From Candidatus Pacearchaeota archaeon (GTDB taxonomy: Archaea; Nanobdellota; Nanobdellia; Pacearchaeales; GW2011-AR1), in contig JAGVWM010000021.1 in NCBI GenBank assembly GCA_018304325.1, forward strand, positions 1 to 47,866: a stretch of DNA of 47,866 nt, written 5' to 3'. This document shows, one piece after another, positions 19,586 to 47,866 of the stretch (within the stretch, counting starts at the first letter, position 1; each line of letters opens with the position of its first letter). Position numbers and translations under genes: made by a program. The notes beneath the pieces were generated by a model. It made no database searches. It saw only the letters and a list, made by a program, of their open reading frames with translations, and was not told the DNA's origin.

Positions 19586-19839
19586 AAGGTTTTATTAATA
19601 AATAATTCTTGTTCATCTAGTCTTAGTTTGGTATTAATGCCTTTCTAGGGCCACACGCCTATTAACCAGTACATCATTTAAATTTATTTTATGTTATAAA
19701 ATACAATCTTGACATTAAGTAATAATTTTAATAAGAATAAATTATGAAATATGAAAAGATGGTGCTTCCTTTGAGAAAACTCATTGACTAGAAGTCCTTT
19801 TTAGGAAAGGTTAAGAGGCTATGTAGTTCTGTCGCTTAT

Positions 19840-28388: not shown

Positions 28389-28763
28389 TCACTTTTTCTT
28401 AAACTCAACATTTTTCATATTTTCAAATTCCTTATCTCCTGTAACAAAATAATATCCATTTTTAATAGAAAATATATATCCTACTGCATCAAAAAAAGAA
28501 ATATTTTGTTTTTTATGTTCATACCTGAACTTTACTGCTTCAATTAGGATTTCTATACTAACCTTTTTTGAGTATATCTGCAATTTTTTTAACCATAATT
28601 CAGCTTCATTTTCCCCATATTCCCTTAATAAAATTCCATAATATTCTGCTAAAGTTAAGTCATTTACAATAAACTCTTCATTTAGATAACCAGAAAATTT
28701 TTCATTACCTAAATATATTTCAATAAGAGCATAGGTATCTAAGAATTTGATCATTTTAGCCAT
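28389..28763 (-). CDS. vapC: PIN-domain toxin (VapC-like)
   Basis: FLDTYALIE..., FFDAVGY, VTGDKEF acidic positions. It overlaps the upstream AbrB-type gene by 13 nt. Confidence 0.65.
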   Translation of the reverse strand: MAKMIKFLDTYALIEIYLGNEKFSGYLNEEFIVNDLTLAEYYGILLREYGENEAELWLKKLQIYSKKVSIEILIEAVKFRYEHKKQNISFFDAVGYIFSIKNGYYFVTGDKEFENMKNVEFKKK

Positions 28764-30783: not shown

Positions 30784-31378
30784 GGGATATTGCTTAAAAG
30801 CAGATATAAAACATTACTTTGAAGAAGTTGATAATGATATTTTATTAGAAATAATAAAGAGAAAAATAAAAGATGAAAAAGTTATATGTCTTATAGAAAA
30901 GATTTTAGGAAACAATTCTGTTGGGAAGCATTCAGACAAAGGAATGCCATTAGGCAATTTAACTTCCCAATTTTTTGCAAATATTTATCTTAATGAATTA
31001 GACTATTTTGTCAAACATAAATTAAAAGCTAAATATTATATAAGATATGTTGATGATTTTATCATTCTCCATAATTCAAAATCACAACTAAAAGAATGGA
31101 AAAATGAAATTAATAACTTTTTAAAAAATGGGCTGAAGTTAGAACTGCATCCAGACAAATCAAAGATTATTTCGCTTTCAAGTGGAGTTGACTTTGTTGG
31201 ATTTATAAATTTTTATTATTTTAAATTACTAAGAAAAAGAAACATAAAAAACATTGAAAGAAAAATTAAAATGTTTAATGAAGGTTTAATTAGCAAGGAT
31301 AAGTTGTTAGAAAGTTTTCAAGGATGGAAGGCATATGCAAAATGGGCAGATAGTTATAAATTTAATAAACAATTTTAA
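30776..31378 (+). pseudogene. DGR-type reverse transcriptase, 5'-truncated (fingers motifs 1-2 missing)
   Basis: The frame is open from 30776: KIRGYCLKADIKHYFEEVDNDILL...GMPLGNLTSQFFANIYLNELD...YIRYVDDFIILH...GVDFVGF. The LGxxxSQ and YVDD motifs are DGR-RT-like. Only ~200 aa are present, and homology starts immediately after the upstream gene's stop. Confidence 0.7.
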
Positions 31379-36925: not shown

Positions 36926-39247
36926 TTATTCTTTAGTTTCTTTATTTTTTCTTGATTCACACTCAGGATTAAAACAAAATATCCAAGGCCTCTTACCCTT
37001 TTTTATAGACATTAACATAGGAAAACCACAATACTCACATTTTTTTTCAGATTTCTTTATTAAAGAATTTGGAGGTAATGAATAAGTTTTTTTACATTCA
37101 GGATAATTACTACAACCTAAAAAGTATCTTTTGTACTCTTTAGAATATTTCAAACCTAAAGTCCCCTTTTCACACTCTATACAAGGCATTACCTCATTAT
37201 CTTTTTTTTCAGCTTCCCATAAAGTTTCAGTTGCTTTAACAAGGTCATCTCCTATTTTATTCTTATTTTTTTCAAAATCTTTCCCTATCGAAATAATAAT
37301 CTTTTTTGCTTCATCAAGTATTTTTTCTTCACTTTTATTCGGATTTTTTGAATTTCTTATGTTTTCAAGATTAAGCTCTATATCTCGCGTTAGTTTTTCA
37401 TCAATTATTATCGGAGAATTTTTTTCTAAAGTGTTAATTAAAGATAATCCTAAAGAAGTTGCTTCAATACTTTTTTCTTTTATATAACCTCTTTGATAAA
37501 GTGTTTCAAGAATATTTGCTCTTGTTGCTTTAGTTCCAAGATTTCTTTTTTCAAGCTCAGATATTATAGATGCAGGACTATATCTTTTTGGAGGCTGTGT
37601 CATTTTCTCTTCTATAACACTTTTTTTAATCTCAGCATCTCCATCCATATCAGGTATTTCATTCTCTTTTATTATTATTGGATAAACTTCCACCCAACCT
37701 TTTTTTGCAATTCCAAGGCCTCTTGCATAAAAATTCATTCCATTATATGAAAATGTTATTTTCTTATTGTCAATTATAGCATCTTCACAGAAACAATTAA
37801 CAAATCTTCTTACAATTAATTCGTAGATTCTTTTATCATCTTCTTCTAATTCATGGAACTCTCCAGTAGGATATATAGATGGATGTGCAGGATCTGTTTT
37901 TTTACCTTCTATAGGGGTTTTTCTTTTAGCTTTGTCAACAAATGAAAATCTTTTTTTTAATCGATCTAAAATAACATCATAACCTATTTCTTTAGGTATT
38001 TTCTGGCTTGAGGTTCTTGGATATGAAATAACTCCTCCAAGATAAAGTCTTTGAGCAATTTCAAGTGTTTTATTCGGATTTATTTTATACAATCTATAAG
38101 ATTCTGTTTGTAAACTTGTTAAATCAAATGGGGCATTTGGAGGCATTTCTTGTTTGTTCTTCTCTGTTTTAACAACACCTTTCTTGCCTTCAATACCATT
38201 AAACTTTGAAAGATCTTTTTCATTAGTTATATCTTTTTGGTATTTTACTTTAACATCATTTTTTTTATCACTAATATCTAAAAATACTTGCCAATATTTC
38301 TCAGATTTAAATCTCTGTATTTCTTTTTCTTTTTCTACTATTATATGTAATGCAGGACCCTGAACTCTTCCAATTGACATTAATCTAAATTTACCAGTAG
38401 ACTTTATAGCATCCATTAAAGCTCTAGATAAATTAATGCCATAAAGCCAGTCTAAATAGTGCCTTGTTTCTCCAGCAATTCCCTGCCCCCAATCTAAACT
38501 TTTGCTTCTTTTTTCAAATGCTTCCTGGATTTCTTTAGATGTAAGAGTTGAAAATTTCATTCTCTCAGCATCTTTTTGACCACATATATAACGGACAATA
38601 TTCATGCCAATAACCTCACCTTCTATATCATAATCTGTAGCTACAACGATTTCTGAAGCATTTTTTGATAGTTTTGCTATAACATTATAATACCTTTTTG
38701 TAAAATCATTTTTTCTTACTAAATAATTTGGAGCCCACTGAATATCAAATGTTGGCCATTTATTTCTTGCATTAACCTGTGCAATTGAAAAAAGATGTCC
38801 GACAGCACAAACAACCTGAATATCTTTTCCATTTCTTTGTAAAGTGTAGTAAGGAACATTTCCCAAAGAATTTTTAATTACTTTGCCCTCTGTCAATGCA
38901 TCAGATATTTTCTGAGCTGCTTGGGGTTTTTCAGTTATTATTAAGATATATCCTTTATCTTTTAACTTACTATTCATGGGTTTAAACTTTTCAGTCCATG
39001 ACTTCCCATTTGTTTTTCCAGTTGCCTTTTTCTTTCTATTTTTTATTTTAGTTTTTTTAACTTTCGTTTTGTAAACCTTTTCGTTAAAAGGTTTATTTTC
39101 AATTGTCTCTATGTTATCTCTTGATTTTACAAGTACATCAACAGCTCCAGCTAAATCAGATTCATCTACTGGAACAAAATCCTCTCTTATTGATTGCTCA
39201 CCATAGTGCTTCACAGGATCTTCAACATTTTTCTTCTTTGGAGGCAT
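36926..39247 (-). CDS. topA: DNA topoisomerase, type IA, with C-terminal zinc ribbons
   Basis: Toprim ILIITEKPQAAQKI and ATDYDIEGEVIG; SIGRVQGPAL; active-site region ISYPRTSSQKIP; C-terminal CIECEKG...CSNYPEC, CEYCGF...CFNPEC. Confidence 0.85.
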   Translation of the reverse strand: MPPKKKNVEDPVKHYGEQSIREDFVPVDESDLAGAVDVLVKSRDNIETIENKPFNEKVYKTKVKKTKIKNRKKKATGKTNGKSWTEKFKPMNSKLKDKGYILIITEKPQAAQKISDALTEGKVIKNSLGNVPYYTLQRNGKDIQVVCAVGHLFSIAQVNARNKWPTFDIQWAPNYLVRKNDFTKRYYNVIAKLSKNASEIVVATDYDIEGEVIGMNIVRYICGQKDAERMKFSTLTSKEIQEAFEKRSKSLDWGQGIAGETRHYLDWLYGINLSRALMDAIKSTGKFRLMSIGRVQGPALHIIVEKEKEIQRFKSEKYWQVFLDISDKKNDVKVKYQKDITNEKDLSKFNGIEGKKGVVKTEKNKQEMPPNAPFDLTSLQTESYRLYKINPNKTLEIAQRLYLGGVISYPRTSSQKIPKEIGYDVILDRLKKRFSFVDKAKRKTPIEGKKTDPAHPSIYPTGEFHELEEDDKRIYELIVRRFVNCFCEDAIIDNKKITFSYNGMNFYARGLGIAKKGWVEVYPIIIKENEIPDMDGDAEIKKSVIEEKMTQPPKRYSPASIISELEKRNLGTKATRANILETLYQRGYIKEKSIEATSLGLSLINTLEKNSPIIIDEKLTRDIELNLENIRNSKNPNKSEEKILDEAKKIIISIGKDFEKNKNKIGDDLVKATETLWEAEKKDNEVMPCIECEKGTLGLKYSKEYKRYFLGCSNYPECKKTYSLPPNSLIKKSEKKCEYCGFPMLMSIKKGKRPWIFCFNPECESRKNKETKE

Positions 39248-39248
39248 T

Positions 39249-40061
39249 TTATAAACTATCTAAAGGAGATTTAATATTCTGTAACTGGAAATTAGAAACA
39301 TGGGTATATATTTGTGTTGTTTCTAGCTTATTATGCCCTAAAAGTTTTTGGATAATTCTAATATCAACCCCATTTTCAAGCAGATGTGTTGCAAAACTAT
39401 GCCTTAATGTGTGGCAGCTTGCTTTTTTATTAATTGCAGATTTTTTAAGTGCACTTTCAAAAATTTTCTGAATAGTTTTTATTGTAATTTTTCCATTTCT
39501 ACCTTCAAATACATATTTACTATTATTTAGGGAAATATAATTTTTTAGTTCATTAGACAAACTTTCAGGGAGATTTACATATCTGTCTTTTTTACCTTTA
39601 GCTTCTTTGATTAATGCAATTTTCCTCTCAAAATTAACATCCTGTACCTTCAAATTTTGCAGTTCACTTACTCTTAAACCTAGTCCATATATTGTTTGAA
39701 GAATTAATCTATGTTTGGGATTATCTAAAGAATAAATTATTTTTTTTACTTCTTCTTTTGATAAAACAGAAGGTAGCCTTTTTTCTTTAGTTGGCCTTTT
39801 AATATCAAGCTTACTATTATAAATTCCAAAAGCAAATTTTAACGCACTAATTACAACATTTAAAGATATATTTGTCTGCCCTTTTTCATTTAAATAAGCC
39901 AAATATTTTTTCACATCTTCCTCATTTGAGAAAGATAAATCTTTATTGCTGAATTTAACAAAGTTTTCAATTATATTGGTATAAGATTTCTTAGTTTTAG
40001 GGCTAAAACCTCTTGCACTCATTTCTATTTTAAGTTTTTCAATACCATTTAGTTCACCCAT
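39249..40061 (-). CDS. Tyrosine recombinase, XerA/XerC/D-like (no IntI-type insertion seen)
   Basis: LGLRVSELQNLKVQDV...KGKKDRYVNLP...CHTLRHSFATHLLENGVDIRIIQKLLGHNKLETTQIYTHV. The start is taken at MGELNGIEK (40061), which has TTTATATACTTTATATGG upstream. The track's TTG start at 40214 reads through GC-rich non-coding DNA. Confidence 0.75.
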   Translation of the reverse strand: MGELNGIEKLKIEMSARGFSPKTKKSYTNIIENFVKFSNKDLSFSNEEDVKKYLAYLNEKGQTNISLNVVISALKFAFGIYNSKLDIKRPTKEKRLPSVLSKEEVKKIIYSLDNPKHRLILQTIYGLGLRVSELQNLKVQDVNFERKIALIKEAKGKKDRYVNLPESLSNELKNYISLNNSKYVFEGRNGKITIKTIQKIFESALKKSAINKKASCHTLRHSFATHLLENGVDIRIIQKLLGHNKLETTQIYTHVSNFQLQNIKSPLDSL

Positions 40062-40326
40062 ACAGGGAAATAACCATATAAAGTATATAAAATTATCTTT
40101 ATATGGAGTTGCTTGGCTTCGCCCAAATTGAGATTTCGCCCTTCTGGTTACTTGCTTTCCCCTTTTTTTCCGACATGGTGTTTTTGTCCCTGCTCCCTGC
40201 CCTTTAGGTTGCAAGTAATTCTCAGCCTTTTGATTTCTCGCTCAGTTTAACCTCACAAAAAGAAAACAGAAAAGAAATGCTTCGCACTTCTCATAACAAA
40301 GGTTAAACTAAATTGCTGAAACAGAC

Positions 40327-40713
40327 TTAATCTTCTCTCCAAACTTTTCTACAATGTTGGTCATAAATTACCCGTGCCGATTTGTATAATCTTTTTATTC
40401 CTTCAGAGTCAAATTCGCCTTTGGTAAATCTACGATAATGTCTTTGTATTGTTCTTTGTGAGACATTATCCAAATAAACTCCAAGCAGTTCTCTTTCCCC
40501 ATCATACATCGAGCTTTTGCTTTCCATACCAAAGGCTTTTTGTAAGAGAACATATTTCATCTCATCTAAGGTCGGATGTTCTTTTCTCATAATCTCTTCT
40601 AATCTTTGCCTTTCTTCTTCATACATTTTTAACATCCTCCCGATTGGACTATTTTCATGTTCTCTTCTTAACTCTTCAGTCATTTTTTCTATTGAACTTT
40701 TCCTTTTTGCCAT
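40327..40713 (-). CDS. Small basic protein with HTH-like segment (128 aa)
   Basis: LGVYLDNVSQRTIQRHYRRF is HTH-like. The ORF is bracketed by short nested inverted repeats. Confidence 0.45.
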   Translation of the reverse strand: MAKRKSSIEKMTEELRREHENSPIGRMLKMYEEERQRLEEIMRKEHPTLDEMKYVLLQKAFGMESKSSMYDGERELLGVYLDNVSQRTIQRHYRRFTKGEFDSEGIKRLYKSARVIYDQHCRKVWRED

Positions 40714-40979
40714 ATATTTTTGCGTTATGACCTGTATTTAAACTTTTGTTTGGGGTTTCAGCAACTACGCTACGAAATCGGCTGAGAACGAAATCTCAAC
40801 TCTCGGGGCACTTCGTGTGCCAGCCCGAGCCTTCCGCTTCGCTTCAGGTCAAGCAACAGCAGATTAAGAGGTAATTTCTTTTTGCTCCGCAAATCGCTTT
40901 CGTAGCGACCAGAAATTAGCCCAAATTTTTCAGTCATTTCTATTTTCAAATTAGCTGAAAAACTTCTTTTACCCCCAAT

Positions 40980-41150
40980 GTTAGTTTCAATTGCAAATTC
41001 TCTATACTTTGAAATAAAAACTGAAAATTAAGAGAGGACACTTCAATTCCCCAGACCACCCGCCCCTAAATTGTAGAAATTGTTGTAAATAAAAAGTGAG
41101 CCGCCTTGGTGCTTCGCACATTTTGTCTTGACTTCGTCAAGCAGAAAAAC
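40980..41150 (+). repeat. Long direct repeat, copy 1 (~171 bp)
   Basis: GTTAGTTTCAATTGCAAATTCTCTATAC...GGTGCTTCGCACATT has 7 mismatches in 143 nt against 47276-47418 by hand. It is followed by hairpin CTTGAC-TTC-GTCAAG and CAGAAAAAC. Confidence 0.8.
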
Positions 41151-41186
41151 AAAAGCTTTTATTAGTAGGTTTTATTTATTTCTATT

Positions 41187-42686
41187 ATGAGCAAAACATC
41201 TAAAAAACAAATAGTTGTTGGTTATCATCCTATTGCTAATCGCATTGGAGAAAAAATTTTGAATTCTGGCGGAAACGCTTTTGACGCTTTTGTAGCAACA
41301 ACTGCCGCCGAATGTGTATTGGGTGAAGGGGTAACAAGTCTTGCAGGTCCTTTAGGGGCTTTGCTTTATGGTTCAAAATCAAAAAAGTGTTATTATCTTG
41401 ATGCTGGTTTTAACACGCCTCTGAATATTGGTAAAAAAGATAAAATTGGTGCAAGAGTTCCCGGAGCACCGGCAGGTCTTGAAGCTATTTCTAAAAAATT
41501 TGGAAAATTGCCTTTTCACAAAGTTCTTGAGCCGGCAATCCAACTTGCACGTAATGGTTTTAAGTTAAATAATTTGTATGCAGATTTAATTTTCTTCAAC
41601 AAAGAAAAATTGAAAAAAAGCCAATACGGGAAACAAAAATTTTTTCAAAATAATAAACCTCTTGCAAAAGGAAAGATTTTAAAGTTTCCAGAAGTTGCAG
41701 TTGTTCTTGAATCTCTTGCTAAAAAAGGCTCAAAATATATGTATGAAGGGGAATGGGCTAAAAAAGTTGTTAAAGAAGTGCAAAAGAAAGGCGGAATTCT
41801 TACTATGAAAGATTTTTCTCAATATGAAATAAAATGGAGAAATCCAATCAAAATAAATTATAGAGATTATAAAATATATTCTACATCTGGAAGAACATTT
41901 GGAGGACTAGCGGTTTGTTTAGCATTAAAAGCTTTGGAGAATTTAGATATTTCTTCCTTTAAGAATCATTATTCAAATGATGCCACGGCTCTTGAAATTT
42001 TAATAAGGATTAACAATGAAGCAGAAAAAGTCGTGAATAATTTTAAACCTAAAGAACTCGATAATAATTTCCTTATCCAAAAATTAATTAATAAGAAAGC
42101 GCATGAAATATTGGAAAAAGTGCAAAAGGAAATAAAAATAAATAAATCTGTTCATGGAAACCATAGTTATCAAGTTTCTATTATAGATAAAGAAGGAAAT
42201 GCAATCACAGGAACAAATTCTATTCAATCTCTTCCTTGGGGAGAAGGGATTTTTGTTGAAGGAATTCCCTTAACTGCAAGCGGAATAGTAACTCCTTTTA
42301 GTACAAATTCCGGAGAAAGAGAATTATCTGCTTTATCAATGCACATGGGAATGAAGAGTTCAAAAGTTGCTTTCATAAGCGGAGCATTTGGTTCTTCATT
42401 AATTCCTGCCGAATTTCAGTTTCTAGTTAATATCATAGATTATAAACTTTCTGCGAAAAAAGCAACAACTCTTCCTAGATTTGGGACAACAGCATGGGAA
42501 ATGAAAAATAAAAAATATATACAAAAAGGAATTTGGCTAGATACGCGAATTAAAAAAAGCATAATCAATACCTTAAATAAACGAGGTTTAAAATTTGAAC
42601 AAGAAGGTTGGGTTGATACAGGATTCGGTTCCATTATACTTGTTAAACCTGATGGTTCTGTTGAGGGTTCAATTGCACCTGTTTAA
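41187..42686 (+). CDS. ggt: Gamma-glutamyltransferase-family protein (no signal peptide)
   Basis: HPIANRIGEKILNSGGNAFDAFVATTAAECV...; processing-site region GNHSYQVSIIDKEGNAITGTNSI. Confidence 0.7.
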   Translation: MSKTSKKQIVVGYHPIANRIGEKILNSGGNAFDAFVATTAAECVLGEGVTSLAGPLGALLYGSKSKKCYYLDAGFNTPLNIGKKDKIGARVPGAPAGLEAISKKFGKLPFHKVLEPAIQLARNGFKLNNLYADLIFFNKEKLKKSQYGKQKFFQNNKPLAKGKILKFPEVAVVLESLAKKGSKYMYEGEWAKKVVKEVQKKGGILTMKDFSQYEIKWRNPIKINYRDYKIYSTSGRTFGGLAVCLALKALENLDISSFKNHYSNDATALEILIRINNEAEKVVNNFKPKELDNNFLIQKLINKKAHEILEKVQKEIKINKSVHGNHSYQVSIIDKEGNAITGTNSIQSLPWGEGIFVEGIPLTASGIVTPFSTNSGERELSALSMHMGMKSSKVAFISGAFGSSLIPAEFQFLVNIIDYKLSAKKATTLPRFGTTAWEMKNKKYIQKGIWLDTRIKKSIINTLNKRGLKFEQEGWVDTGFGSIILVKPDGSVEGSIAPV

Positions 42687-42695
42687 ATCTTTTAC

Positions 42696-42725
42696 CTTCT
42701 TTTTTAGAAAAAAAGAAGCAAAAAA
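42696..42725. terminator. T/A-rich palindrome CTTCTTTTTTAGAAAAAAAGAAG + CAAAAAA after ggt
   Basis: Lies 10 nt after the ggt stop, between convergent genes. Related copies are at 43471-43500 and 46914-46940. Confidence 0.4.
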
Positions 42726-42742
42726 TTAAGTGCACTTTTCCC

Positions 42743-43147
42743 TTATTTGATCAACAGCAATGCTTCTTCAGGGCTAACAATCTTTATTCCTTGATATTCT
42801 TTTAATTTTAATAGATGTTTATCTTGACTTATAATTAAATCTGCATTTCCGCTTATTCCAGCTTCAAGAAATTTATTATCGTCAGGATCTTCCTTTATGA
42901 CATTAAGTTTTATTTTTGGATTAATAATAACAGAACTTTCGATGATTAAATTTCTCCATTCTTCAATCATTTCATCAGACATTTGAATTTTGAAATTTCT
43001 TAATGTTTCTGCAAATTCTTTTAAAATATCCATAGAACTGACTAACTCAAATTTCTTATTTTTCCATTTGTCTATTATTTGGGAACAAAAATTTCCCTCC
43101 CAGAAAATTCCAGAGACAAAAACATTAGTATCAATGATTGCTCTCAT
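42743..43147 (-). CDS. PIN-domain toxin
   Basis: AIIDTNVFVSG...; DPDDNKFLEAGISGNADLIISQDKHL. Confidence 0.65.
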   Translation of the reverse strand: MRAIIDTNVFVSGIFWEGNFCSQIIDKWKNKKFELVSSMDILKEFAETLRNFKIQMSDEMIEEWRNLIIESSVIINPKIKLNVIKEDPDDNKFLEAGISGNADLIISQDKHLLKLKEYQGIKIVSPEEALLLIK

Positions 43148-43404
43148 TTTTTCCGAGTCTGTTTGATTGCATTCTCTACATCAGGCTCTTTTATTCCTTT
43201 CTTTTTAGCAAAATCTCTTGTTTTTTTGAGTAGTTTATCTATTCCGCTAAAAGAAGGCATTTCCAACTTTTTCAATACAATTGTACTATCTTCCCCAATA
43301 ACAACAAACTTTTCTCCCTCGTGAATTTTCATTTTATCTCTTAAACTCTGGGGAATTACAACTTGCCCTCTTGAACTTACGCTTGTTATTTCAACTTTTT
43401 CCAT
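43144..43404 (-). CDS. AbrB/SpoVT-type antitoxin
   Basis: VSSRGQVVIPQSLRDKMKIHEGEKFVVIGEDSTIVLKK, with a 4-nt overlap with the PIN gene. Confidence 0.65.
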   Translation of the reverse strand: MEKVEITSVSSRGQVVIPQSLRDKMKIHEGEKFVVIGEDSTIVLKKLEMPSFSGIDKLLKKTRDFAKKKGIKEPDVENAIKQTRKK

Positions 43405-43470
43405 TTTTACCTCCTGATAAGTTTATATGATTGGTAAGATTATCTTATTTATAAATCTTTCGTTTAGAGT

Positions 43471-43500
43471 CTTCTTTCCCTAAAAAAAGAAACAAAAAAA
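43471..43500. repeat. Degenerate copy of the T/A-rich palindrome
   Basis: CTTCTTTCCCTAAAAAAAGAAACAAAAAAA. Together with 42696-42725 it brackets the PIN/AbrB module as imperfect direct repeats. Confidence 0.5.
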
Positions 43501-43732
43501 GCGCGCGCTTCCGTCCCCCACCCTAAAATAGTGCAGGTTCTCAAACTCTCTCCGCTTCGCTCCGAGCCACGACTTGCAGGCTCTCACTTTGTTCTAGGCG
43601 TTGAACAGACATTAAAAGGAAAATCCTTGCAGGATTTTGCCCAAATTTCTTGCTTATTGATAAGCTTTTAGTTAGGCAAGAAACATCTTTTAATGTCATA
43701 TGTTCTATTCAATAATTTCAGGGGCTAACGAA

Positions 43733-43774
43733 AGGGGCAATTTTAACTAAACGAAACGACGGGGGGAATTCCGT
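43733..43774 (+). repeat. Inverted repeat, left arm, flanking the AsnB-fusion gene
   Basis: AGGGGCAATTTT-(16 nt)-GGGGGGAATTCCGT. The outer 12 nt and inner 14 nt are exact reverse complements of 46944-46985. Confidence 0.75.
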
Positions 43775-43831
43775 AACGACGACTTTAAAAATAGCAATGT
43801 TTATAATTAAATTAGATAATATTATATTAAG

Positions 43832-46800
43832 ATGTGCGGAATAACTGCTATATTTGGAAATTATAAAGAAAAAGAGGATTTCGTAAAGATTTCTCTAGAT
43901 AAAATTCAACATAGAGGAACGAGCATATTTGAATATAAAATATTTAGTAATGGCGCTCTTGGTGCAAATAGGTTGCCTATTGTTGATAGAGAACACGGAC
44001 AACAACCTCTATCAAATGAAGATAATACTATTTTTGCAGTTCAGAATGGGGAGATATTTAATTATATTTCAATAAAAGAAATGCTTCAAAAGAAAGGTCA
44101 TAAATTTAAGACTAATTGTGATACTGAAGTTCTTGCTCATCTCTATGAAGAGTTTGGAGAAAAACTAATTGATTATATTGATTCAGAGATGTTTTCTTTT
44201 GTAATTTATGACTCAAAAAAAGATAAATTCTTTGTCGCTCGAGATAGATTTGGAGTAAAACCCTTATTTTATGCCATTGATAAAAACAATTTCTATTTTG
44301 GTTCTGAATTAAAACAGCTAGTTCAATTTGACTTTATCAAAGAAGTGAAAATCTTTCCAAAAGGGCATTATATGGCTGATGGGAAACTAAAAAAGTATTA
44401 CGATTTAAAGTATGATAATTCTATTAAAAACTTAGAGCATGCCAAAACTAAATTAACGAATTTAATCGTAGAAGCAGTTAAAAAAAGAGTAGATACGGAT
44501 TTACCTATTGCTGTTTTGCTAAGCGGTGGAGTGGACAGCAGTTTAATTATGGAAATAGCCACAAGATTCCATAAAGATGTTACTGCTTTTATATTGGGTA
44601 TGCCTGGTTCTTCTGATTATGAAGCCGCAGTTAAGTTATGTAAAGATAATAAATACAAACATAAAATAGTTTACCCTAATGTTGATTATGCCAAAGAATT
44701 TGAGAAATTGATTTATCATTTAGAATTGTATGAGGCACAAGTAATCAGACAATCTTTTGCGTTGGATATTCTCGCAAAAGAAGTAGTAAGAACAGGTTAT
44801 AGAATTGCTTTAGTTGGTGAAGCATCAGACGAAATATTTGGAGGATATAATGAGTTTTCTCGTTTGAATAATGAAAATATCAATAAAGGATGTTTCATGA
44901 TTACTGATGATTTAGAAAAAAGTCATAATGTTAGAGTGGATAGAATGAGTATGAAACATGCTCTAGAAACAAGAGCACCTTTCTTTGATACAAAAGTTGT
45001 TGAATTTGCTATGAAAATTGATGGAAAACTTAAAGTAAAAAGAGAAAATCATCAAATAACAACAAAATATATTTTAAGAAAAGTTGCTGAACAATTTTTG
45101 CCTGATTATATAACTTGGAGGTACAAGGTTCCTTTTGCAAATGGTGCTGGGATGAATGTTGGATATAATTTTAGGTCTCAAGATGGAGATGTTGCAAAAG
45201 AAATATTATCCTATAAAAAGGCAAGTTTAGACAAAAAAACTAAAGAAAAGTATGGGTTTCTAACTGATGAAGAATTAGTTTATTTTGATGCATACAAAAC
45301 TTTCAAATTCGACAAACTTTTCAATAACTGGCAGAGAATTATCACAAAGGAAACACTTAGCAAAATAGATGAAAACACTAATGAAATCAGAATTCTTGTT
45401 GCAGAATTTGGGAGACTTCCTCTTTATTTCCCAGTTTATCTTGCTTCTAGAGTAAAAATATACAAAAAACATAAGTTAGATGTAGATTTTATTACTTCTG
45501 GCGGTGATGATTTAACTTATAATTCCTTATTATCTGGTTCTGCTCAGATAGGAATAGCAGACCCAATTTTTACATTTACAGAGAATTTTTCCACTAAGGG
45601 GAAGATTATCGGACAATTGGTTGGAAAAGTGCCTATTGTTGCTGTAACTTTGAATCCTTCAATAAAAGTAACTCAAATAAATGATTTAGAAAAATATAGG
45701 ATTGGAACATTTCAAGAATATTCAACAACTAATACTTTAATGAAAGAACTGCTTCCAACTAAAGAATTAATCCCAATAAAGTATTCTGAAATTACTCAGG
45801 CATTAAAAGATAGAAAAATTGACATAGGAATTATGACTCCTGATCTGGCGTATGACTTAATAGGGAAAGGCGGCCATATTATATACAAATTTGAAGAGAA
45901 ATTTGGAGATTATCTATTTACAGGCGTAACAATATGTGATAATCTAGACCCGAGATTTCATCCCGCCATTAAATCATTCTTAGCATCTATTAAAGAATCT
46001 GTAAATCTTATAAAAAAGAATAAGAAGGAAGCATTTGCCCAGTTTAAAATGGAATTCCCAGAAATGCTTAATCATGAAGAAATGTTTGATTATCTGATTC
46101 ATTTTTGGAATAAAAAACTTACTATATCTGAAAGTGGAATAAAGAGAGCAAAACATACGTGGCAAAAAGTATATCCTTGGTTAATAAAATCTAATATGCC
46201 TCAATTCATAAAACCACGACCAGAAGATGAAATCTTAAGAATCCTAAGCGATAGAGATATATCTAGAGATATTCCTTATATGGAAGATAAAATGGCAGAT
46301 ATTATATGCCAGAATATAAAAGAGAAAACTCCAATATCTCTAGTTGGATTTTGGGGTGCTTCTGACAAGCATAAATTCGATGAAAAAGATAATAATGCAA
46401 TAAACAAGCTTAAGAGCCTAAATTCTGAAATTAAGAATTTGCATAAGCCAGGAATTGAATTTACTTTTATTTTAGCAGATGAACACGCAAGATTAAATAA
46501 ATGTAATAAAGAAGCATATAGCCTATATTTAAAAGAAATTGAAAAAAAACTTAAAGAAGCGGGATTCAAAACTATTTTCTTAAGCGAAATCTGGAAGAAA
46601 TATAAAATCTCTGACGAGTTAATCTACGCAAAACTAAAGAAATTAAAAGATTCTGAATGGAGAGACGTAATAAATCATAAAGAATTAGAAAAGTCATCAA
46701 GAAACAGGGAATTAAAAGATTATAAGCAAGAAGCGAAACGATACTTTATTTGCAGAAAGATGGAATCAGAAGCTCTGCTCAAAGAATTTCCAAATATGAT

Positions 46801-46912
46801 ATTTAACACATATGGAGAAGATATACACCAAAATCTATTCCCTGATTGCCCAATCATTTACTTTTGGGTAACTAACCGAGGATATACGATTTCACCTTGG
46901 TTGGATAAATGA
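43832..46912 (+). CDS. Three-part fusion: asparagine synthetase (glutamine-hydrolysing) + periplasmic-binding-protein-like (NMT1/SsuA-type) domain + unknown C-terminal domain
   Basis: The N-terminal MCGI (Ntn Cys2), SGGVDSS PP-loop and EASDEIFGGY match AsnB. The middle, RILVAEFGRLPLYFPVYLASRVKIYKKHKLDVDFITSGG...GIADP, looks like a type 2 PBP. The last ~230 aa (LVGFWGASDK...ILADEHARLN...TISPWL) are unassigned. Confidence 0.7.
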   Translation: MCGITAIFGNYKEKEDFVKISLDKIQHRGTSIFEYKIFSNGALGANRLPIVDREHGQQPLSNEDNTIFAVQNGEIFNYISIKEMLQKKGHKFKTNCDTEVLAHLYEEFGEKLIDYIDSEMFSFVIYDSKKDKFFVARDRFGVKPLFYAIDKNNFYFGSELKQLVQFDFIKEVKIFPKGHYMADGKLKKYYDLKYDNSIKNLEHAKTKLTNLIVEAVKKRVDTDLPIAVLLSGGVDSSLIMEIATRFHKDVTAFILGMPGSSDYEAAVKLCKDNKYKHKIVYPNVDYAKEFEKLIYHLELYEAQVIRQSFALDILAKEVVRTGYRIALVGEASDEIFGGYNEFSRLNNENINKGCFMITDDLEKSHNVRVDRMSMKHALETRAPFFDTKVVEFAMKIDGKLKVKRENHQITTKYILRKVAEQFLPDYITWRYKVPFANGAGMNVGYNFRSQDGDVAKEILSYKKASLDKKTKEKYGFLTDEELVYFDAYKTFKFDKLFNNWQRIITKETLSKIDENTNEIRILVAEFGRLPLYFPVYLASRVKIYKKHKLDVDFITSGGDDLTYNSLLSGSAQIGIADPIFTFTENFSTKGKIIGQLVGKVPIVAVTLNPSIKVTQINDLEKYRIGTFQEYSTTNTLMKELLPTKELIPIKYSEITQALKDRKIDIGIMTPDLAYDLIGKGGHIIYKFEEKFGDYLFTGVTICDNLDPRFHPAIKSFLASIKESVNLIKKNKKEAFAQFKMEFPEMLNHEEMFDYLIHFWNKKLTISESGIKRAKHTWQKVYPWLIKSNMPQFIKPRPEDEILRILSDRDISRDIPYMEDKMADIICQNIKEKTPISLVGFWGASDKHKFDEKDNNAINKLKSLNSEIKNLHKPGIEFTFILADEHARLNKCNKEAYSLYLKEIEKKLKEAGFKTIFLSEIWKKYKISDELIYAKLKKLKDSEWRDVINHKELEKSSRNRELKDYKQEAKRYFICRKMESEALLKEFPNMIFNTYGEDIHQNLFPDCPIIYFWVTNRGYTISPWLDK

Positions 46913-46913
46913 T

Positions 46914-46940
46914 CTTCTTTTTGTAAAAAGAAGCAAAAAC
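46914..46940. terminator. T/A-rich palindrome CTTCTTTTTGTAAAAAGAAG + CAAAAAC after the AsnB fusion
   Basis: Starts 2 nt after the stop codon and belongs to the same family as 42696-42725. Confidence 0.4.
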
Positions 46941-46943
46941 ACG

Positions 46944-46985
46944 ACGGAATTCCCCCCTACGAAACGACGACTGAAAATTGCCCCT
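46944..46985 (-). repeat. Inverted repeat, right arm
   Basis: ACGGAATTCCCCCC-(16 nt)-AAAATTGCCCCT. Confidence 0.75.
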
Positions 46986-47275
46986 TGATACTTATTCTTG
47001 ATGGCTCACTGTGTTCGCTTGATTGAATACGCCCCTGAAATTACTTTGATTTTTTGCTCTTCGAGCATCGTTGCACTAAAATTCAAGTCCTAACGGACGA
47101 GTTTAACAGGGCTTAACCGACTACGAAACCTTGCAGGTTTCTCCGTCCAAATTTTGCCCCATCTCTGAAAATTTCTCCAGCTCTGTTCTGATTTTCCAGC
47201 TCTGAACTGTGGTTCGAGGGAAAATCCTCACGAGGTCGAAATTTTCGAGGGGTCAAAACTTCGTATATCCCTGAC

Positions 47276-47447
47276 GTTAGTTTCAATTGCAAATTCTCTA
47301 TACTTTAAAATAAAATCCAAAAATTAAGAGAGGGCACTTCAATTCCCCCGACCACCCGCCCCTAAATTGTAGAAATTGTTGTAAATAAAAGGTGAGCCGC
47401 CTTGGTGCTTCGCACATTTACTCTCGCTTTCAGCGAGGCAGAAAAAC
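47276..47447 (+). repeat. Long direct repeat, copy 2 (~172 bp)
   Basis: Same core as 40980-41122. It is followed by a different-sequence hairpin CTCGC-TTTCA-GCGAG and CAGAAAAAC. Confidence 0.8.
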
Positions 47448-47532
47448 TTCTTTTATCCGACCAACGAAAAACTCACGAAATTAAAATTTCGTCCAACAAA
47501 GGATAAAAGGCTTCGCCCAAATTTTTTTGATA

Positions 47533-47866
47533 TTATTGGGGAGTTTTCTTAATATCCTTTTTCATTTCCTTTAATAAATCTAATAATGAATCTCCTAAAT
47601 CATTACGATAAAATGTTTCTTCTTTAAGTCCTGTTTTTGTATGAGAATAAATTTTCCATCCAACCCCTTTATTAGAATCAATAAAAGAATCTGCCAATCC
47701 ATCATATAGAGTTTTATCCTTTCCTGCTTTTTGGAATTTGGCTAAAGGAACTCTGACTTTTGTAAAGGTAGTTAAAACTTCATTAAGTTTTAGTTTGGTA
47801 TTTTCACTCAATGAATTTCTTTTTTTATCAATATCGTTTAGAAATCTAATTAATTCATAAGCTCCT
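47533..47866 (-). CDS. Hypothetical protein, C-terminal part (frame open to window edge)
   Basis: The track starts at a TTG. The same frame continues upstream (AYELIRFLNDIDKKRNSLSENTK...) to the end of the window. Confidence 0.45.
   Translation of the reverse strand, partial: GAYELIRFLNDIDKKRNSLSENTKLKLNEVLTTFTKVRVPLAKFQKAGKDKTLYDGLADSFIDSNKGVGWKIYSHTKTGLKEETFYRNDLGDSLLDLLKEMKKDIKKTPQ

What the first reader, a model, noticed from the sequence alone, without database searches (positions are those of the whole stretch)
39249..47866. Cassette-like gene array beside a tyrosine recombinase, separated by anomalously GC-rich, hairpin-dense blocks
To the right of the minus-strand recombinase, each gene or gene pair is separated from the next by 200-600 bp of non-coding DNA. 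In order these are a small HTH ORF, ggt, a PIN/AbrB TA pair in reverse orientation, the 1026-aa AsnB fusion, and the next ORF. The composition of these spacers is foreign to the genome: I hand-count about 59 G+C in 43501-43600, against roughly 25-32% in coding DNA. The blocks share modules. These are a 171-bp direct repeat, 42-nt inverted repeats, stem-loops with conserved loops, the 9-mer GCCCAAATT four times, and a T/A palindrome at gene 3' ends. A recombinase facing an array of promiscuous genes, including a reverse-oriented TA module and separated by structured repeats, recalls sedentary integrons. However, neither the recombinase nor the repeats are canonical. It may be a different gene-capture platform, a MITE-saturated island, or horizontally acquired DNA carrying its native flanks.
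Basis: partly seen in the sequence, partly recalled or inferred. Interest (0 to 1): 0.75.

Follow-up and report, generated by a model that had tools for sequence, protein, structure and literature searches.

The report
Integron-like gene cassette array beside archaeal XerA
The GC-rich, hairpin-dense spacers are integron-type attC recombination sites bounding mobile gene cassettes in a DPANN (Pacearchaeota) archaeon, and in about 30 related loci the array starts next to a XerA-type recombinase that lacks the domain thought to define integron integrases.

Summary
Each large GC-rich block holds an attC-like imperfect palindrome: R'' (RYYYAAC-like), L'' (GCGATTAAGAG), two variable hairpins around CCAAATT, L' (CTCTTAATCGC), a 2-nt bulge, then R' (T|GTTRRRY). 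All sites point the same way. A covariance model built only from other DPANN genomes finds them solely right of the recombinase. Compensatory changes keep the closing helix. The same attC precedes up to nine different downstream units, and the switch is always at GAT|GTT. In 13 of 26 cassettes R'' is perfectly complementary to the R' at that cassette's own 5' end, the signature of integron-type crossover at G|TT. In 20 of 21 genome loci and 4 of 26 metagenome loci a xerA homologue sits left of the array, divergently, next to a GTTN5NAAT site. The recombinase passes the archaeal XerA model, fails the integron-integrase model and lacks the IntI-specific domain. Verdict: a sedentary integron-like cassette platform. 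The attC arrays are a known kind (archaeal clusters without an integrase, Ghaly 2022); the XerA linkage appears unreported. That XerA is the integrase is inferred, not shown.

The parts
36926..39247 (-). topA (type IA topoisomerase). It lies 1 nt downstream of the recombinase gene and is probably co-transcribed. Context only, not part of the cassette array.
   Evidence: Pfam Topoisom_bac, Toprim and Zn_ribbon_Top1. The same xerA-topA pair occurs in relatives L011 and L160.
39249..40061 (-). XerA-type tyrosine recombinase (270 aa), the candidate integrase of the platform. It lacks the IntI-specific additional domain.
   Evidence: NCBIfam NF040815 recomb_XerA_Arch scores 238.7 bits against a cutoff of 220. 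TIGR02249 integron integrase scores 215 against a cutoff of 265 and the match is split in two. Best PDB match is P. abyssi XerA 4a8e. Against VchIntIA 2a3v, query residues 182-195 correspond to chain residues 187-245, so about 45 residues are missing.
40074..40110 (+). attI-like site next to the recombinase start: palindrome CCATATAAAG-N13-CTTTATATGG, then A, then GTT (G at 40108).
   Evidence: Read from the sequence. Homologous sites in close relatives end ...TTATATGGA|GTTAGTTTCAAT (L012) and ...TTATATGGA|GTTAAACTCAAT (L013). 27 of 29 xerA loci have GTTN5NAAT within 260 nt upstream of xerA; chance is 0.14 per locus.
40256..40321 (+). Remnant of module e, a hairpin with stem GTTTAACC/GGTTAAAC.
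   Evidence: 82% identical to L039 80-145. e-type modules directly follow the xerA-proximal site in at least 7 other loci.
40327..40713 (-). 128-aa ORF of unknown function in the first array position.
   Evidence: ORF list. No Pfam or NCBIfam hit. Called as a gene in contigs L002-L006.
40855..40986 (+). attC1, a degenerate attC-like site. R''-L'' (AACAGCAGATTAAGAGG) is intact and L' has decayed. R' is GTTAGTT, with G at 40980.
   Evidence: Covariance model R1 gives 21.6 bits, E 0.057. Junction HMM E 3.7e-06. The closing helix is not formed in the single-strand DNA fold.
40980..41150 (+). Module b, copy 1: a conserved non-coding unit that starts exactly at R', at the 5' end of the ggt cassette.
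   Evidence: 144 nt are 95% identical to 47276-47419. Its core CACCCGCCCCTAAATTGTAG is present in 26 metagenome contigs. Homology between loci begins 0-2 nt from the R' GTT.
41187..42686 (+). ggt (gamma-glutamyltransferase), a cassette gene.
   Evidence: Pfam G_glu_transpept. An identical protein is named in NCBI as Candidatus Pacearchaeota archaeon. Homologues 74% and 56% identical in L164 and L165 lie among core genes without attC.
42696..42725 (+). T/A palindrome CTTCTTTTTTAGAAAAAAAGAAGCAAAAAA between the convergent ggt and PIN genes. It places oligo-T on both strands and is inferred to be a bidirectional archaeal terminator.
   Evidence: A 30/30 identical copy lies at L001 14815-14844. The motif occurs at 0.112 per kb on the attC strand and 0.004 per kb on the other strand.
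42743..43404 (-). PIN toxin (42743-43147) and MazE/AbrB antitoxin (43144-43404), reverse-oriented, in the same attC-bounded unit as ggt.
   Evidence: Pfam PIN_3 and MazE_antitoxin.
43472..43498 (+). Degenerate T/A palindrome at the left edge of the attC2 block.
   Evidence: 74% match to the reference copy.
43603..43708 (+). attC2, an intact attC-like site: R'' GTTGAAC, L'' GACATTAAAAG, hairpin, CCCAAATT, hairpin, L' CTTTTAATGTC, bulge, R' GTTCTAT (G at 43702).
   Evidence: Covariance model R1 gives 59.8 bits, E 2.7e-10, + strand only. The single-strand DNA fold is -20.6 kcal/mol with z -6.0 and the predicted closing helix and bulge. The L boxes covary with the family consensus.
43732..43774 (+). 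Left arm of the cassette-specific inverted repeat, at the 5' end of the asnB cassette.
   Evidence: 43 nt, 77% complementary to 46944-46986. z = 7.6 for the cassette's 5' part against its own 3' block.
43832..46912 (+). AsnB fusion (1026 aa), a cassette gene.
   Evidence: Pfam GATase_7, Asn_synthase and weak NMT1. NCBIfam asn_synth_AEB. The identical protein occurs in 12 contigs with the same neighbours.
46913..46939 (+). T/A palindrome directly after the asnB stop codon, at the left edge of the attC3 block.
46944..46986 (+). Right arm of the inverted repeat around asnB.
   Evidence: Contig L005 diverges from the window inside this arm, after 46953.
47043..47100 (+). Module d, a conserved hairpin unit (TTGATTTTTTGC.CTTCG.GCATCGTTGCACTAAAA.TCAA) lying 5' of R''.
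   Evidence: 93% identical to L001 14946-14987. It recurs in front of R'' in many loci.
47104..47282 (+). attC3, a long attC-like site: R''-L'' TAACAGGGCTTAACCG, an extended variable region, L' CGTATATCC, CTGAC, R' GTTAGTT (G at 47276). The L''/L' pair is mismatched, so the site is a hybrid.
   Evidence: Junction HMM E 3.2e-07. Covariance model R1 gives partial hits at 47201-47287 (21.1 bits) and 47101-47192 (19 bits).
47276..47431 (+). Module b, copy 2, at the 5' end of the next cassette (186-aa ORF, R.HinP1I, C5 methylase).
   Evidence: It is weakly complementary to L001 14845-14935 on the far side of that cassette, z 3.6.
47438..47530 (+). Module e: stem CTTCTTTTATCC/GGATAAAAGG enclosing GACCAAC-hairpin-GTCCAAC, ending in GCCCAAATT.
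   Evidence: Conserved with compensatory stem changes in many contigs. Function unknown.
47533..47866 (-). 3' part of a 186-aa ORF, the first gene of a restriction-modification cassette that continues beyond the window.
   Evidence: L001 12373-12933 is followed by R-HINP1I and DNA_methylase genes, then an attC at L001 15009-15097.

Best explanation
The region is the recombinase-proximal end of a sedentary, integron-type gene cassette array in a Pacearchaeota (DPANN) archaeon.

Each cassette is organised as follows:
- the distal part of an R' box (TTRRRY...CAAT);
- optional leader modules;
- one to three genes in either orientation, each with its own AT-rich promoter;
- often a T/A palindrome;
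- conserved hairpins;
- an attC-like imperfect palindrome ending in G.

Cassettes are excised as circles and re-inserted by site-specific recombination between the G and TT of R'. The folded attC hairpin is most likely the substrate. New cassettes enter at the attI-like site (hairpin plus GTT) directly upstream of the recombinase gene.

The XerA-type tyrosine recombinase encoded divergently next to that site is the most likely integrase, although it lacks the IntI-specific domain.

Shown here:
- the attC architecture and its covariation;
- co-orientation of the sites;
- shuffling of units exactly at GAT|GTT;
- complementarity of R'' to the cassette's own 5' R';
- the conserved xerA-attI-array layout.

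Inferred:
- that XerA is the catalyst;
- that the substrate is single-stranded;
- that the T/A palindromes act as bidirectional terminators;
- that the cassettes have their own promoters.
For: 1. attC architecture.
- 85% of cells are paired in the R''L''/L'R' helix over 40 distinct sites, against 36-41% when the partner is slid.
- 8 of 16 pairs show changes on both sides.
- The covariation score is 0.208 against 0.117 in shuffles, reached by 0 of 500 shuffles.
- R'' is within one mismatch of RYYYAAC in 89 of 95 sites. R' is within one mismatch of GTTRRRY in 105 of 124 sites.
- Site length is 67-189 nt, median 105.
- Single-strand DNA folds have z of about -6.

2. Independent covariance model. 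A model built from GTDB DPANN sites only hits window 43600-43713 (E 2.7e-10), L001 15009-15097 (E 1.6e-12) and L001 16454-16559 (E 2.7e-08). All are on the + strand. Nothing reaches E<1 in window 1-39000.

3. Mobility.
- One downstream unit follows 5 different attCs, and one attC precedes 9 different units. The switch is always at GAT|GTT.
- L029 and L038 share 4060 nt at 99.9% identity starting at the R' site, although their xerA genes are only 77% identical. L029 has an extra unit (a gene plus an attC) between xerA and the shared part.

4. Crossover position. R'' is perfectly complementary to the R' at the cassette's own left end in 13 of 26 cassettes from 21 loci. The mean is 2.77 of 4 matches, against 1.92 for the right end and 1.88 for background. 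Permutation p is 0.00045.

5. Link to the recombinase.
- A xerA homologue lies within 8 kb in 21 of 120 genome loci (92 of which have a junction-HMM hit at E<0.01). In 20 of the 21 it is to the left and on the opposite strand.
- All 124 junction sites are co-oriented.
- 4 of 26 metagenome loci show the same layout.
- Starting from XerA instead, 27 of 29 loci have GTTN5NAAT upstream of xerA.
- Contigs of close relatives break 50-170 nt upstream of xerA.

6. Cassette content is accessory: toxin-antitoxin and restriction-modification genes, Mrr, GNAT, hisD, an extra class I tRNA synthetase, a TrmB regulator and hypothetical proteins.
Against: - No recombination product (excised circle or empty site) was observed. 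Ten contigs of this population show the same cassette order.
- The recombinase lacks the domain that in IntI contacts the extrahelical bases of attC, so activity on folded attC is unproven.
- It passes the equivalog model for the housekeeping XerA.
- A canonical IntI elsewhere in the genome cannot be excluded, because only 54 kb of this genome was available.
- Cassettes here are large (median 1.2 kb, up to 5.5 kb in the sample) and often hold several genes. ORF orientation is 38 on + and 36 on -, unlike canonical integrons.
- Two of the three attC sites inside the window are degenerate or hybrid.
- Extra conserved modules (b, d, e, T/A palindrome) have no counterpart in integrons.
- Contig tails of L003 and L005 diverge at module boundaries that are not R'.
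Confidence: 0.7

Rival explanations
1. The array is a true attC cassette array but an orphan (a cluster of attC sites lacking an integrase). Cassettes are moved by a canonical IntI encoded elsewhere or by another organism. xerA lies beside the array only because cassettes accumulate at or next to the chromosomal dif site, which in these archaea would sit beside xerA (as with elements that exploit Xer). On this reading XerA either acts only at dif or is irrelevant to attC recombination.
For: - The recombinase is an ordinary-looking XerA: it passes NF040815, its best structural relative is P. abyssi XerA, and it has no IntI domain.
- Some xerA-proximal sites look like dif: 12-6-12 ATCATATCATAA ATAAAC TTATGATATGAT in L106 and 11-8-11 in L065.
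- Ghaly et al. found Pacearchaeales and Woesearchaeales genomes with 2-12 attCs and no IntI.
Against: - The xerA-proximal site carries the same extended motif (TTAAT...GTTN5NAAT) as the cassette junctions.
- Homology between L029 and L038 starts at that GTT, so cassettes are inserted exactly there.
- The palindromes vary in sequence and in spacer length (3-19 nt) between genomes. A protein-read dif site of a conserved XerA should not vary in this way.
- No IntI-like gene was seen in any of the roughly 150 loci fetched. This was not searched systematically.
Confidence: 0.18
2. The blocks are mosaic intergenic repeats (of the MITE, REP/BIME or BOX kind) that pile up in a gene-poor accessory island. 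The genes between them are ordinary residents, not mobile cassettes.
For: - The blocks are mosaics of modules (b, d, e, T/A palindrome) with sharp boundaries that recur in different combinations.
- Contig tails diverge at module boundaries that are not R'.
- Strict strand polarity is also known for elements that transpose as single strands (own knowledge).
Against: - Gene-containing units move together with their attC: a 4-kb segment holding three genes lies in two different contexts, with a boundary at R'.
- Complementarity of R'' to the cassette's own 5' R' spans the genes.
- No copies occur in the 39 kb to the left, despite six large spacers there.
- The link to xerA and its orientation is conserved.
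- No transposase partner is present and the elements have no terminal inverted repeats.
Confidence: 0.04
3. The blocks are structured RNAs, either non-coding RNA genes or leader/trailer elements, conserved for an RNA-level function. GC-rich hairpins in an AT-rich genome would fit this.
For: - Hairpins with compensatory changes and UUCG- or UUGC-type loops.
- Very high conservation of some modules: 95-98% between contigs whose genes do not align.
- T-rich palindromes lie at one edge of the blocks.
Against: - No Rfam family matches.
- Orientation is independent of the neighbouring genes.
- The conserved features are those of recombination sites: AAC/GTT boxes, exchange of flanks exactly at GTT, and R'' pairing with a sequence kilobases away at the cassette's 5' end.
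- An RNA role for the extra modules is not excluded and could coexist with the recombination sites.
Confidence: 0.04
4. The genes were acquired horizontally and the GC-rich spacers are their native flanks from a GC-richer donor.
For: The spacers are 10-30 percentage points richer in G+C than the rest of the genome.
Against: - The coding sequences between the blocks have host-like composition, 27-34% G+C.
- The same blocks flank unrelated genes in many DPANN genomes of about 30% G+C.
- ggt homologues in relatives have flanks of 23% G+C, and the homology stops at the ORF ends.
Confidence: 0.01

Closest known systems
Sedentary chromosomal integrons of Bacteria (e.g. the Vibrio superintegron): intI, attI, and cassettes each ending in attC
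   Same: - A divergently oriented tyrosine recombinase gene with an insertion site at its 5' side.
- Co-oriented attC-like imperfect palindromes with R'' RYYYAAC, L'', a variable region, L' and R' GTTRRRY, of comparable length (median 105 nt).
- Crossover at G|TT, inferred from the complementarity of R'' to the cassette's own 5' R'.
- Reverse-oriented toxin-antitoxin cassettes, accessory gene content, and attCs that resemble each other within a lineage.
   Different: - The recombinase lacks the IntI-specific additional domain and scores as XerA.
- There is only a 2-3-nt bulge between the R and L boxes.
- Two conserved hairpins around CCAAATT replace a free variable loop.
- Extra conserved modules and a T/A palindrome make the inter-gene blocks 200-600 nt long.
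- Cassettes are often multi-gene, ORFs run in either orientation at about 50:50, and each cassette appears to have its own promoter. No common Pc promoter is evident.
Archaeal integrons and clusters of attC sites lacking an integrase, reported by Ghaly et al. 2022 (PMC9668308)
   Same: - attC arrays in archaeal metagenome-assembled genomes, including Pacearchaeales and Woesearchaeales genomes with 2-12 attCs and no IntI.
- The arrays here are very probably the same kind of object.
   Different: - That study accepted as integrases only proteins with the IntI-specific domain: six in 75 genomes, none in Nanoarchaeota in the part of Data S1 that was read. It attributed the missing integrases to fragmented assemblies.
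- Here the arrays are physically linked to a XerA-type gene in about 30 loci.
- Whether IntegronFinder's attC model detects these sites could not be tested.
Archaeal XerA/dif chromosome dimer resolution (Cortez et al. 2010, PMC2958812)
   Same: The recombinase is a member by sequence: it passes the NF040815 equivalog and scores 175 bits against P. abyssi XerA.
   Different: - In Thermococcales, dif is an 11-6-11 palindrome in the terminus region and is not next to xerA.
- Here xerA is followed by a variable hairpin plus GTT site and a cassette array.
- No role in dimer resolution was tested.
Mobile elements that exploit Xer recombination (IMEX) and the dif modules of Acinetobacter plasmids. 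Own knowledge; one related preprint was listed but not read.
   Same: Accessory genes, including toxin-antitoxin systems, are bounded by sites for a Xer-family recombinase and accumulate next to a Xer site.
   Different: - Those use double-stranded dif-like 11-6-11 sites, which alternate in orientation in the Acinetobacter dif modules.
- Here the sites are co-oriented attC-type hairpins with R/L boxes, and exchange occurs at GTT outside any 11-6-11 core.
Mosaic intergenic repeats (REP/BIME of E. coli, BOX of pneumococcus). Own knowledge.
   Same: Modular, hairpin-rich, GC-rich intergenic blocks built from a small set of modules.
   Different: Those are scattered genome-wide and are not linked to a recombinase gene, and the genes between them are not exchanged as units.

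Membership tests
Integron (canonical definition) | Integrase of the IntI family: a tyrosine recombinase with the IntI-specific additional domain near patch III | tested here: not met
   TIGR02249 scores 215 bits against a cutoff of 265, in two stretches. NF011946 scores 150.8 against a cutoff of 435. In the alignment to VchIntIA (2a3v), 12 query residues stand opposite 57 residues of the chain.
Integron (canonical definition) | attC sites: imperfect palindromes with R'' (RYYYAAC), L'', L' and R' (GTTRRRY), conserved in structure more than in sequence, about 57-141 nt | tested here: met
   The helix is 85% paired with compensatory changes. The R boxes are within one mismatch of consensus in 89/95 and 105/124 sites. 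Median length is 105 nt (range 67-189). The geometry of the extrahelical bases differs: a 2-3-nt bulge.
Integron (canonical definition) | Recombination between G and TT of R', so that a cassette carries the distal R' at its 5' end and its own attC at its 3' end | tested here: met
   R'' is complementary to the cassette's own left-end R' in 13/26 cassettes, and never perfectly to the right-end R'. Permutation p is 0.00045. Flank exchange occurs exactly at GAT|GTT. This is inference from sequence; no product was observed.
Integron (canonical definition) | attI insertion site adjacent to the integrase gene, which is divergent from the cassettes | tested here: met
   Window 40074-40110. 27/29 xerA loci have GTTN5NAAT within 260 nt upstream. 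The layout is conserved in 20/21 genome loci. In L038 a cassette begins at this site.
Integron (canonical definition) | Mostly promoterless single-ORF cassettes, co-oriented and expressed from a common Pc promoter | tested here: not met
   19 of 38 units have one ORF and 17 have two to six. Orientation is 38 on + and 36 on -. TATA-like boxes upstream of ggt, asnB and the antitoxin gene were read from the sequence. No Pc promoter was identified.
Cluster of attC sites lacking an integrase (CALIN) | At least two attC sites less than 4 kb apart, with no IntI nearby | tested here: met
   Junctions lie at 40980, 43702 and 47276, and in L001 (window coordinate minus 35160) at the equivalents of 50246, 51708 and 52285. 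No IntI-type protein is present. By the formal IntegronFinder definition the locus would be filed here.
Archaeal XerA (chromosome dimer resolvase) | Sequence membership of the XerA equivalog family | tested here: met
   NF040815 scores 238.7 against a cutoff of 220. P. abyssi XerA 4a8e matches at E 1.2e-50 in one stretch. The catalytic RHSFATH...LGH...Y motifs are aligned.
Archaeal XerA (chromosome dimer resolvase) | Acts at a single conserved 11-6-11 dif site in the replication terminus | not testable with these tools
   Only 54 kb of this genome was available, so neither the terminus nor a dif site could be located. The xerA-proximal palindromes vary in arm sequence and in spacer length, 3-19 nt.
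MITE or other interspersed mosaic repeat | Many copies scattered through the genome, independent of any recombinase gene, without co-mobilised genes | tested here: not met
   There is no copy in window 1-39000. All sites are co-oriented and linked to xerA. Genes move together with the sites. A full-genome census was not possible.
Known structured RNA families (Rfam 15) | A match at the family's gathering score | tested here: not met
   No hit in 39900-47866 at gathering score. The best sub-threshold hit is 23.6 bits against a gathering score of 61.5.

The most novel reading that the evidence does not exclude
In Pacearchaeota, Woesearchaeota and related DPANN archaea, the XerA recombinase itself is the integrase of a native integron-like system. 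On this reading a Xer-type enzyme without the IntI-specific domain captures and shuffles attC-bounded cassettes at a hairpin-plus-GTT site beside its own gene, and that site may double as dif. Integron-type cassette capture would then not depend on the IntI domain. The DPANN system would be either an ancestral-grade form of integrons or an independently evolved one, rather than a bacterial import.
Probability: 0.4. Interest if true: 0.9.

Novelty: new variant of a known kind. Interest (0 to 1): 0.72.

Why it matters
Integrons are defined by an integrase with a special extra domain, believed necessary to recognise folded attC DNA. Archaeal attC arrays have so far mostly been reported as orphans with no integrase.

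If the XerA-type enzyme beside these arrays is their integrase, three things follow:
1. The many orphan archaeal arrays gain a cognate enzyme.
2. The extra domain is not essential for attC recombination.
3. The evolutionary step from Xer dimer resolvases to integron integrases becomes directly testable with a natural intermediate.

It would also identify a main route of gene gain for the tiny, host-dependent DPANN genomes. The cassettes seen here carry defence systems (restriction-modification, toxin-antitoxin) and metabolic genes (ggt, asnB, hisD). Finally, surveys based on IntegronFinder would be shown to under-count archaeal integrons.

Tried and rejected
- Rfam, at gathering score and at E up to 5: no family explains the blocks.
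- UUCG/GNRA tetraloop reading of the hairpins. An exact-stem scan showed most loops are 3 or 5 nt, so it gave no strand assignment.
- Reading the junction as a double-stranded Xer core (11-6-11). The arms around TCGCGA are not inverted repeats of each other, and the exchange point lies outside the xerA-proximal palindromes. Rejected by inspection.
- Cassette-wide inverted arms as a general rule. They are significant only for the asnB cassette (z 7.6) and weakly for the restriction-modification cassette (z 3.6), and absent in three others.
- IS200/IS605-type single-strand transposon remnants. These were considered because of the strict polarity and the hairpins. No transposase or TnpB partner is present, and genes move with the sites. 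Not pursued further.
- The contig tails of L003 and L005 as evidence of alternative cassette order. They diverge at module boundaries that are not R', and could be assembly path switches at repeats. They were not used as evidence.
- A search of Ghaly et al.'s supplementary text for the junction sequence: no match. The attC sequences may not be in the text that is held.
- ggt origin. The homologue list carries too few taxon names to decide between bacterial and archaeal origin. The context of the two closest long contigs is archaeal core genes.
- The complete genome CP061211.1 (locus L045). Only 8 kb could be read, so the number of arrays and of xerA paralogues per genome remains unknown.

Full report
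**Observation**

The window is 30.0% G+C. To the right of the minus-strand recombinase gene the spacers 40062-40326, 40714-41186, 43405-43831 and 46913-47532 are 36-41% G+C, with 100-nt peaks of 50-59%. The stretch 43501-43600 holds exactly 59 G+C. The coding sequences between them are 27-34% G+C, and the six large spacers in window 1-39000 are 21-29%.

- a 177-nt direct repeat (40959-41135 / 47255-47431, 90% identity; 144 nt at 95%);
- a 43-nt inverted repeat around asnB (43732-43774 / 46944-46986);
- GCCCAAATT four times;
- a T/A palindrome at 42696, 43472 and 46913.

The short motifs are strictly polar. GCTTCGC occurs 9 times on + and never on -. CTTGCAGG occurs 7 times on + and never on -. 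GCCCAAATT occurs 4 times in the window, all on +. This holds whatever the orientation of the neighbouring genes. Gene calls are confirmed by Pfam, except that 'HTH' for the 128-aa ORF has no support. No Rfam family matches the blocks.

**Organism and extension**

PCNA, primase and Hjc genes lie in the window. Sources name the recombinase homologues as Nanoarchaeota, Pacearchaeota or Aenigmarchaeota. The identical GGT is named Candidatus Pacearchaeota archaeon in NCBI. The window therefore comes from a DPANN archaeon.

The exact AsnB protein occurs on 12 contigs, 10 of which were fetched (Rifle aquifer and other assemblies). All have the same gene order at 99.6-100% identity.

Contig L001 extends the region 6.4 kb to the right (window coordinate = L001 coordinate + 35160). 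It carries a 186-aa ORF with R.HinP1I and a C5 methylase, a VTT-domain gene, small ORFs, a 278-aa ORF and a RelE-like pair. These are again separated by GC-rich blocks that share modules with those in the window. None of the modules occurs in window 1-39000.

**Finding the family**

A 20-nt core of the 171-nt repeat was found in 26 metagenome contigs of about 30% G+C. Aligning them showed that whole blocks are conserved with apparent compensatory changes and that several blocks occur per contig, always co-oriented.

Four of these contigs carry a xerA homologue immediately left of the blocks, on the opposite strand, as in the window.

L029 and L038 share 4060 nt at 99.9% identity although their xerA genes are only 77% identical:
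- In L038 the shared segment abuts the xerA-proximal site.
- In L029 an extra 1002-aa gene plus a block lies in between.
- Homology starts at ...|TATGTTATATG in both.

This led to a junction motif...AACTTCTCTTAATCGCGAT|GTTANNNNCAAT. It is present at 40980, 43702 and 47276, and in L001 at the equivalents of 50246, 51708 and 52285. It is always on + and never occurs in window 1-39000. Many homology segments between contigs begin within 0-2 nt of this GTT.

**Distribution**

They come overwhelmingly from Woesearchaeota, Pacearchaeota, Nanoarchaeota and Aenigmatarchaeota genomes, including the complete genome CP061211.1. About 15 hits appear to be chance hits in GC-richer bacteria.
- 92 loci have a junction-HMM hit at E<0.01.
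- All 124 hits are co-oriented within their loci, with up to six in 8 kb.
- In 21 loci a xerA homologue (37-46% identical) lies within the 8-kb locus. In 20 of these it is left of the sites and on the opposite strand.
- An 8-kb window of a genome of about 1 Mb would contain a given gene in under 1% of cases.

**What the sites are**

Upstream of the junction the alignment of 124 distinct sites shows (A/T)TAAC-A-GCGATTAAGAG, a hairpin, CCAAATT, a second hairpin, then CTCTTAATCGC-GA-T|GTTA. The first element is the reverse complement of the last, apart from a two-base bulge.

This is the architecture of integron attC sites:
- R'' (RYYYAAC), L'', a variable region, L' and R' (GTTRRRY).
- Typical boxes are GTATAAC/GTTATAC, ATATAAC/GTTATAT, AACTAAC/GTTAGTT, GTTGAAC/GTTCAAC and even the classical GCCTAAC/GTTAGGC.
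- R'' is within one mismatch of RYYYAAC in 89/95 sites, and R' is within one mismatch of GTTRRRY in 105/124 sites.
- The span is 67-189 nt, median 105.

The 5' halves were located by sequence alone. On 40 distinct sites anchored this way the closing helix is 85% paired, against 36-41% when the partner is slid. Eight of 16 pairs show changes on both sides. Examples are GACATTAAAAG/CTTTTAATGTC in the window's attC2, GCGATTATCTG/CAGATAATCGC and GGATTTAGAG/CTCTAAATCC. The covariation score exceeds all 500 shuffles.

As single-stranded DNA, window 43599-43708 and L001 15008-15092 fold into exactly this shape with z of about -6 on either strand.

A covariance model was built only from 30 GTDB sites and scored with filters off:

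| Site | Bits | E-value |
|---|---|---|
| window 43600-43713 | 59.8 | 2.7e-10 |
| L001 15009-15097 | 69.9 | 1.6e-12 |
| L001 16454-16559 | 50.6 | 2.7e-08 |
| window 40851-40991 (degenerate) | 21.6 | 0.057 |
| window 47201-47287 (over-long site) | 21.1 | 0.073 |

Nothing scores below E = 1 in window 1-39000 or on the minus strand.

**Evidence that the units are cassettes**

1. Combinatorial exchange. The unit beginning GTTATACGCAATTAAATTTTCACTAGTC... follows five different attC variants in five genomes. One attC variant precedes nine different units. The switch is always at GAT|GTT.

2. The integron model predicts that the distal part of R' travels with the downstream cassette. A cassette's R'' should therefore match the R' at its own 5' end, not the one that closes its attC in the array.
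   - In 26 cassettes from 21 loci with both ends available, R'' is perfectly complementary (4 of 4 distal positions) to the left-end R' in 13 cases and to the right-end R' in none.
   - The means are 2.77, 1.92 and 1.88 (background). Permutation p is 0.00045 for the mean, and no permutation in 20,000 reached 13 perfect matches.

3. Content is accessory and varied: toxin-antitoxin and restriction-modification genes, Mrr, an N6/N4 methylase, GNAT, histidinol dehydrogenase, an extra class I tRNA synthetase, a TrmB regulator and hypothetical proteins.

4. ggt itself is not foreign DNA with native flanks. Its 74% and 56% identical homologues in relatives sit among core archaeal genes, with flanks of 23% G+C and no attC, and homology stops at the ORF ends.

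**The recombinase and its site**

The 270-aa protein passes the archaeal XerA equivalog model (238.7 bits, cutoff 220). It fails the integron-integrase model (215 bits, cutoff 265, split in two).

Its best solved relative is P. abyssi XerA, followed by VchIntIA. Against VchIntIA, 12 query residues face 57 residues of the chain, so the IntI-specific additional domain is absent.

Directly upstream of its start codon lies CCATATAAAG-N13-CTTTATATGG-A-GTT (40074-40110). Close relatives have ...TTATATGGA|GTTAGTTTCAAT and ...TTATATGGA|GTTAAACTCAAT, and their contigs end 50-170 nt upstream of xerA.

Starting from XerA homologues rather than from the sites, 27 of 29 loci have GTTN5NAAT within 260 nt upstream of xerA, against a chance rate of 0.14 per locus. 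It is usually preceded by a genome-specific palindrome containing TTAAT, with arms up to 12 nt and spacers of 3-19 nt. One more distant homologue, beside Cdc6 and PolD, has none.

**Mechanism proposed**

Cassettes are excised as circles and inserted by recombination at G|TT between folded attC hairpins and the hairpin-plus-GTT site beside xerA. The XerA-type enzyme is the proposed catalyst.

The following are read from the sequence and from general knowledge of archaeal transcription, and are inferences:
- the T/A palindrome puts oligo-T on both strands and probably terminates transcription at cassette ends;
- AT-rich TATA-like boxes precede ggt, asnB and the antitoxin gene, so cassettes appear to be self-expressed.

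**Differences from canonical integrons**
- The integrase lacks the IntI domain.
- There is only a 2-3-nt bulge between the R and L boxes.
- The variable region is structured and conserved.
- Extra modules are present (b, d, e, the T/A palindrome).
- Cassettes have a median length of 1.2 kb and are often multi-gene.
- ORF orientation is 38 on + and 36 on -.

**Comparison with the literature**

Ghaly et al. 2022 reported integrons in Archaea. They found 75 genomes, 539 attCs and six IntIs that have the additional domain. Most of the arrays lacked an integrase, and these include Pacearchaeales and Woesearchaeales genomes with 2-12 attCs and no IntI. The arrays here are very likely the same kind of object. 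By the formal definition this locus is a cluster of attC sites lacking an integrase.

Searches found no paper that links such arrays to XerA. In Thermococcales, dif is not next to xerA.

**Limits**
- No recombination product was seen.
- Only 54 kb of this genome was available.
- A canonical IntI elsewhere cannot be excluded.
- IntegronFinder's own attC model could not be run.
- The functions of modules b, d and e, of the inverted repeat around asnB, and of the divergent contig tails of L003 and L005 remain unexplained.

Noticed in passing
window 19621-19827 (+), with ORFs 18893-19585 and 20028-21311; also 30944-31378: A match to the Rfam RT-16 RNA (81 bits, gathering score 50) lies between two ORFs that have no Pfam hits. 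A 144-aa RVT_1 fragment ORF lies 11 kb away. Together they may be a retroelement or a diversity-generating retroelement, or its remains.
   Followed up: no
window 36926-40061: xerA and topA are separated by 1 nt and are probably co-transcribed. The same pair occurs in relatives L011 and L160, but not in L013, where a diphthamide synthase gene follows xerA.
   Followed up: partly
window 47438-47530 and 40256-40321; L016, L023, L039, L050, L080, L139: Module e looks like an attC turned inside out: L'-GAC-CAAC...hairpin...GTCCAAC-AAA-L''. Its stem covaries, and it is often the first element after the xerA-proximal site. Its function is unknown.
   Followed up: partly
window 8579-9505: An ORF encodes a DDE transposase (DDE_Tnp_IS240 / rve_3) in the left part of the window. 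It is unrelated to the cassette array.
   Followed up: no
window 12518-13497 and 13603-14927; 28389-28763: Gene pairs encoding nucleotidyltransferases (NTP_transf_2/Polbeta; DUF6036), and a solitary PIN gene. These are probable toxin-antitoxin modules lying outside the array and without attC sites.
   Followed up: no
window 35216-35300 (upstream end of ORF 35348-36922, Laminin_G_3): Contigs L001 and L003-L005 match 35216-35300 with their first 85 nt, but then resume at 35298 after 52 unmatched bases. This is an internal repeat or an assembly variant in the gene for a surface-protein-like product.
   Followed up: no
L029 4327-8386 = L038 3821-7880: A 4-kb segment is 99.9% identical in two genomes whose xerA genes are 77% identical. 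It carries a GNAT gene, a 389-aa ORF and a class I (Trp/Tyr-type) tRNA synthetase gene, which suggests recent transfer of a multi-gene cassette that includes an aminoacyl-tRNA synthetase.
   Followed up: partly
loci L048, L063, L073, L085 and several loci titled 'Methanosarcinales': Contigs of about 30% G+C carry the DPANN-type attC flank but are filed under bacterial or Methanosarcinales genome bins. This is probably mis-binning or mis-labelling in the public records.
   Followed up: no
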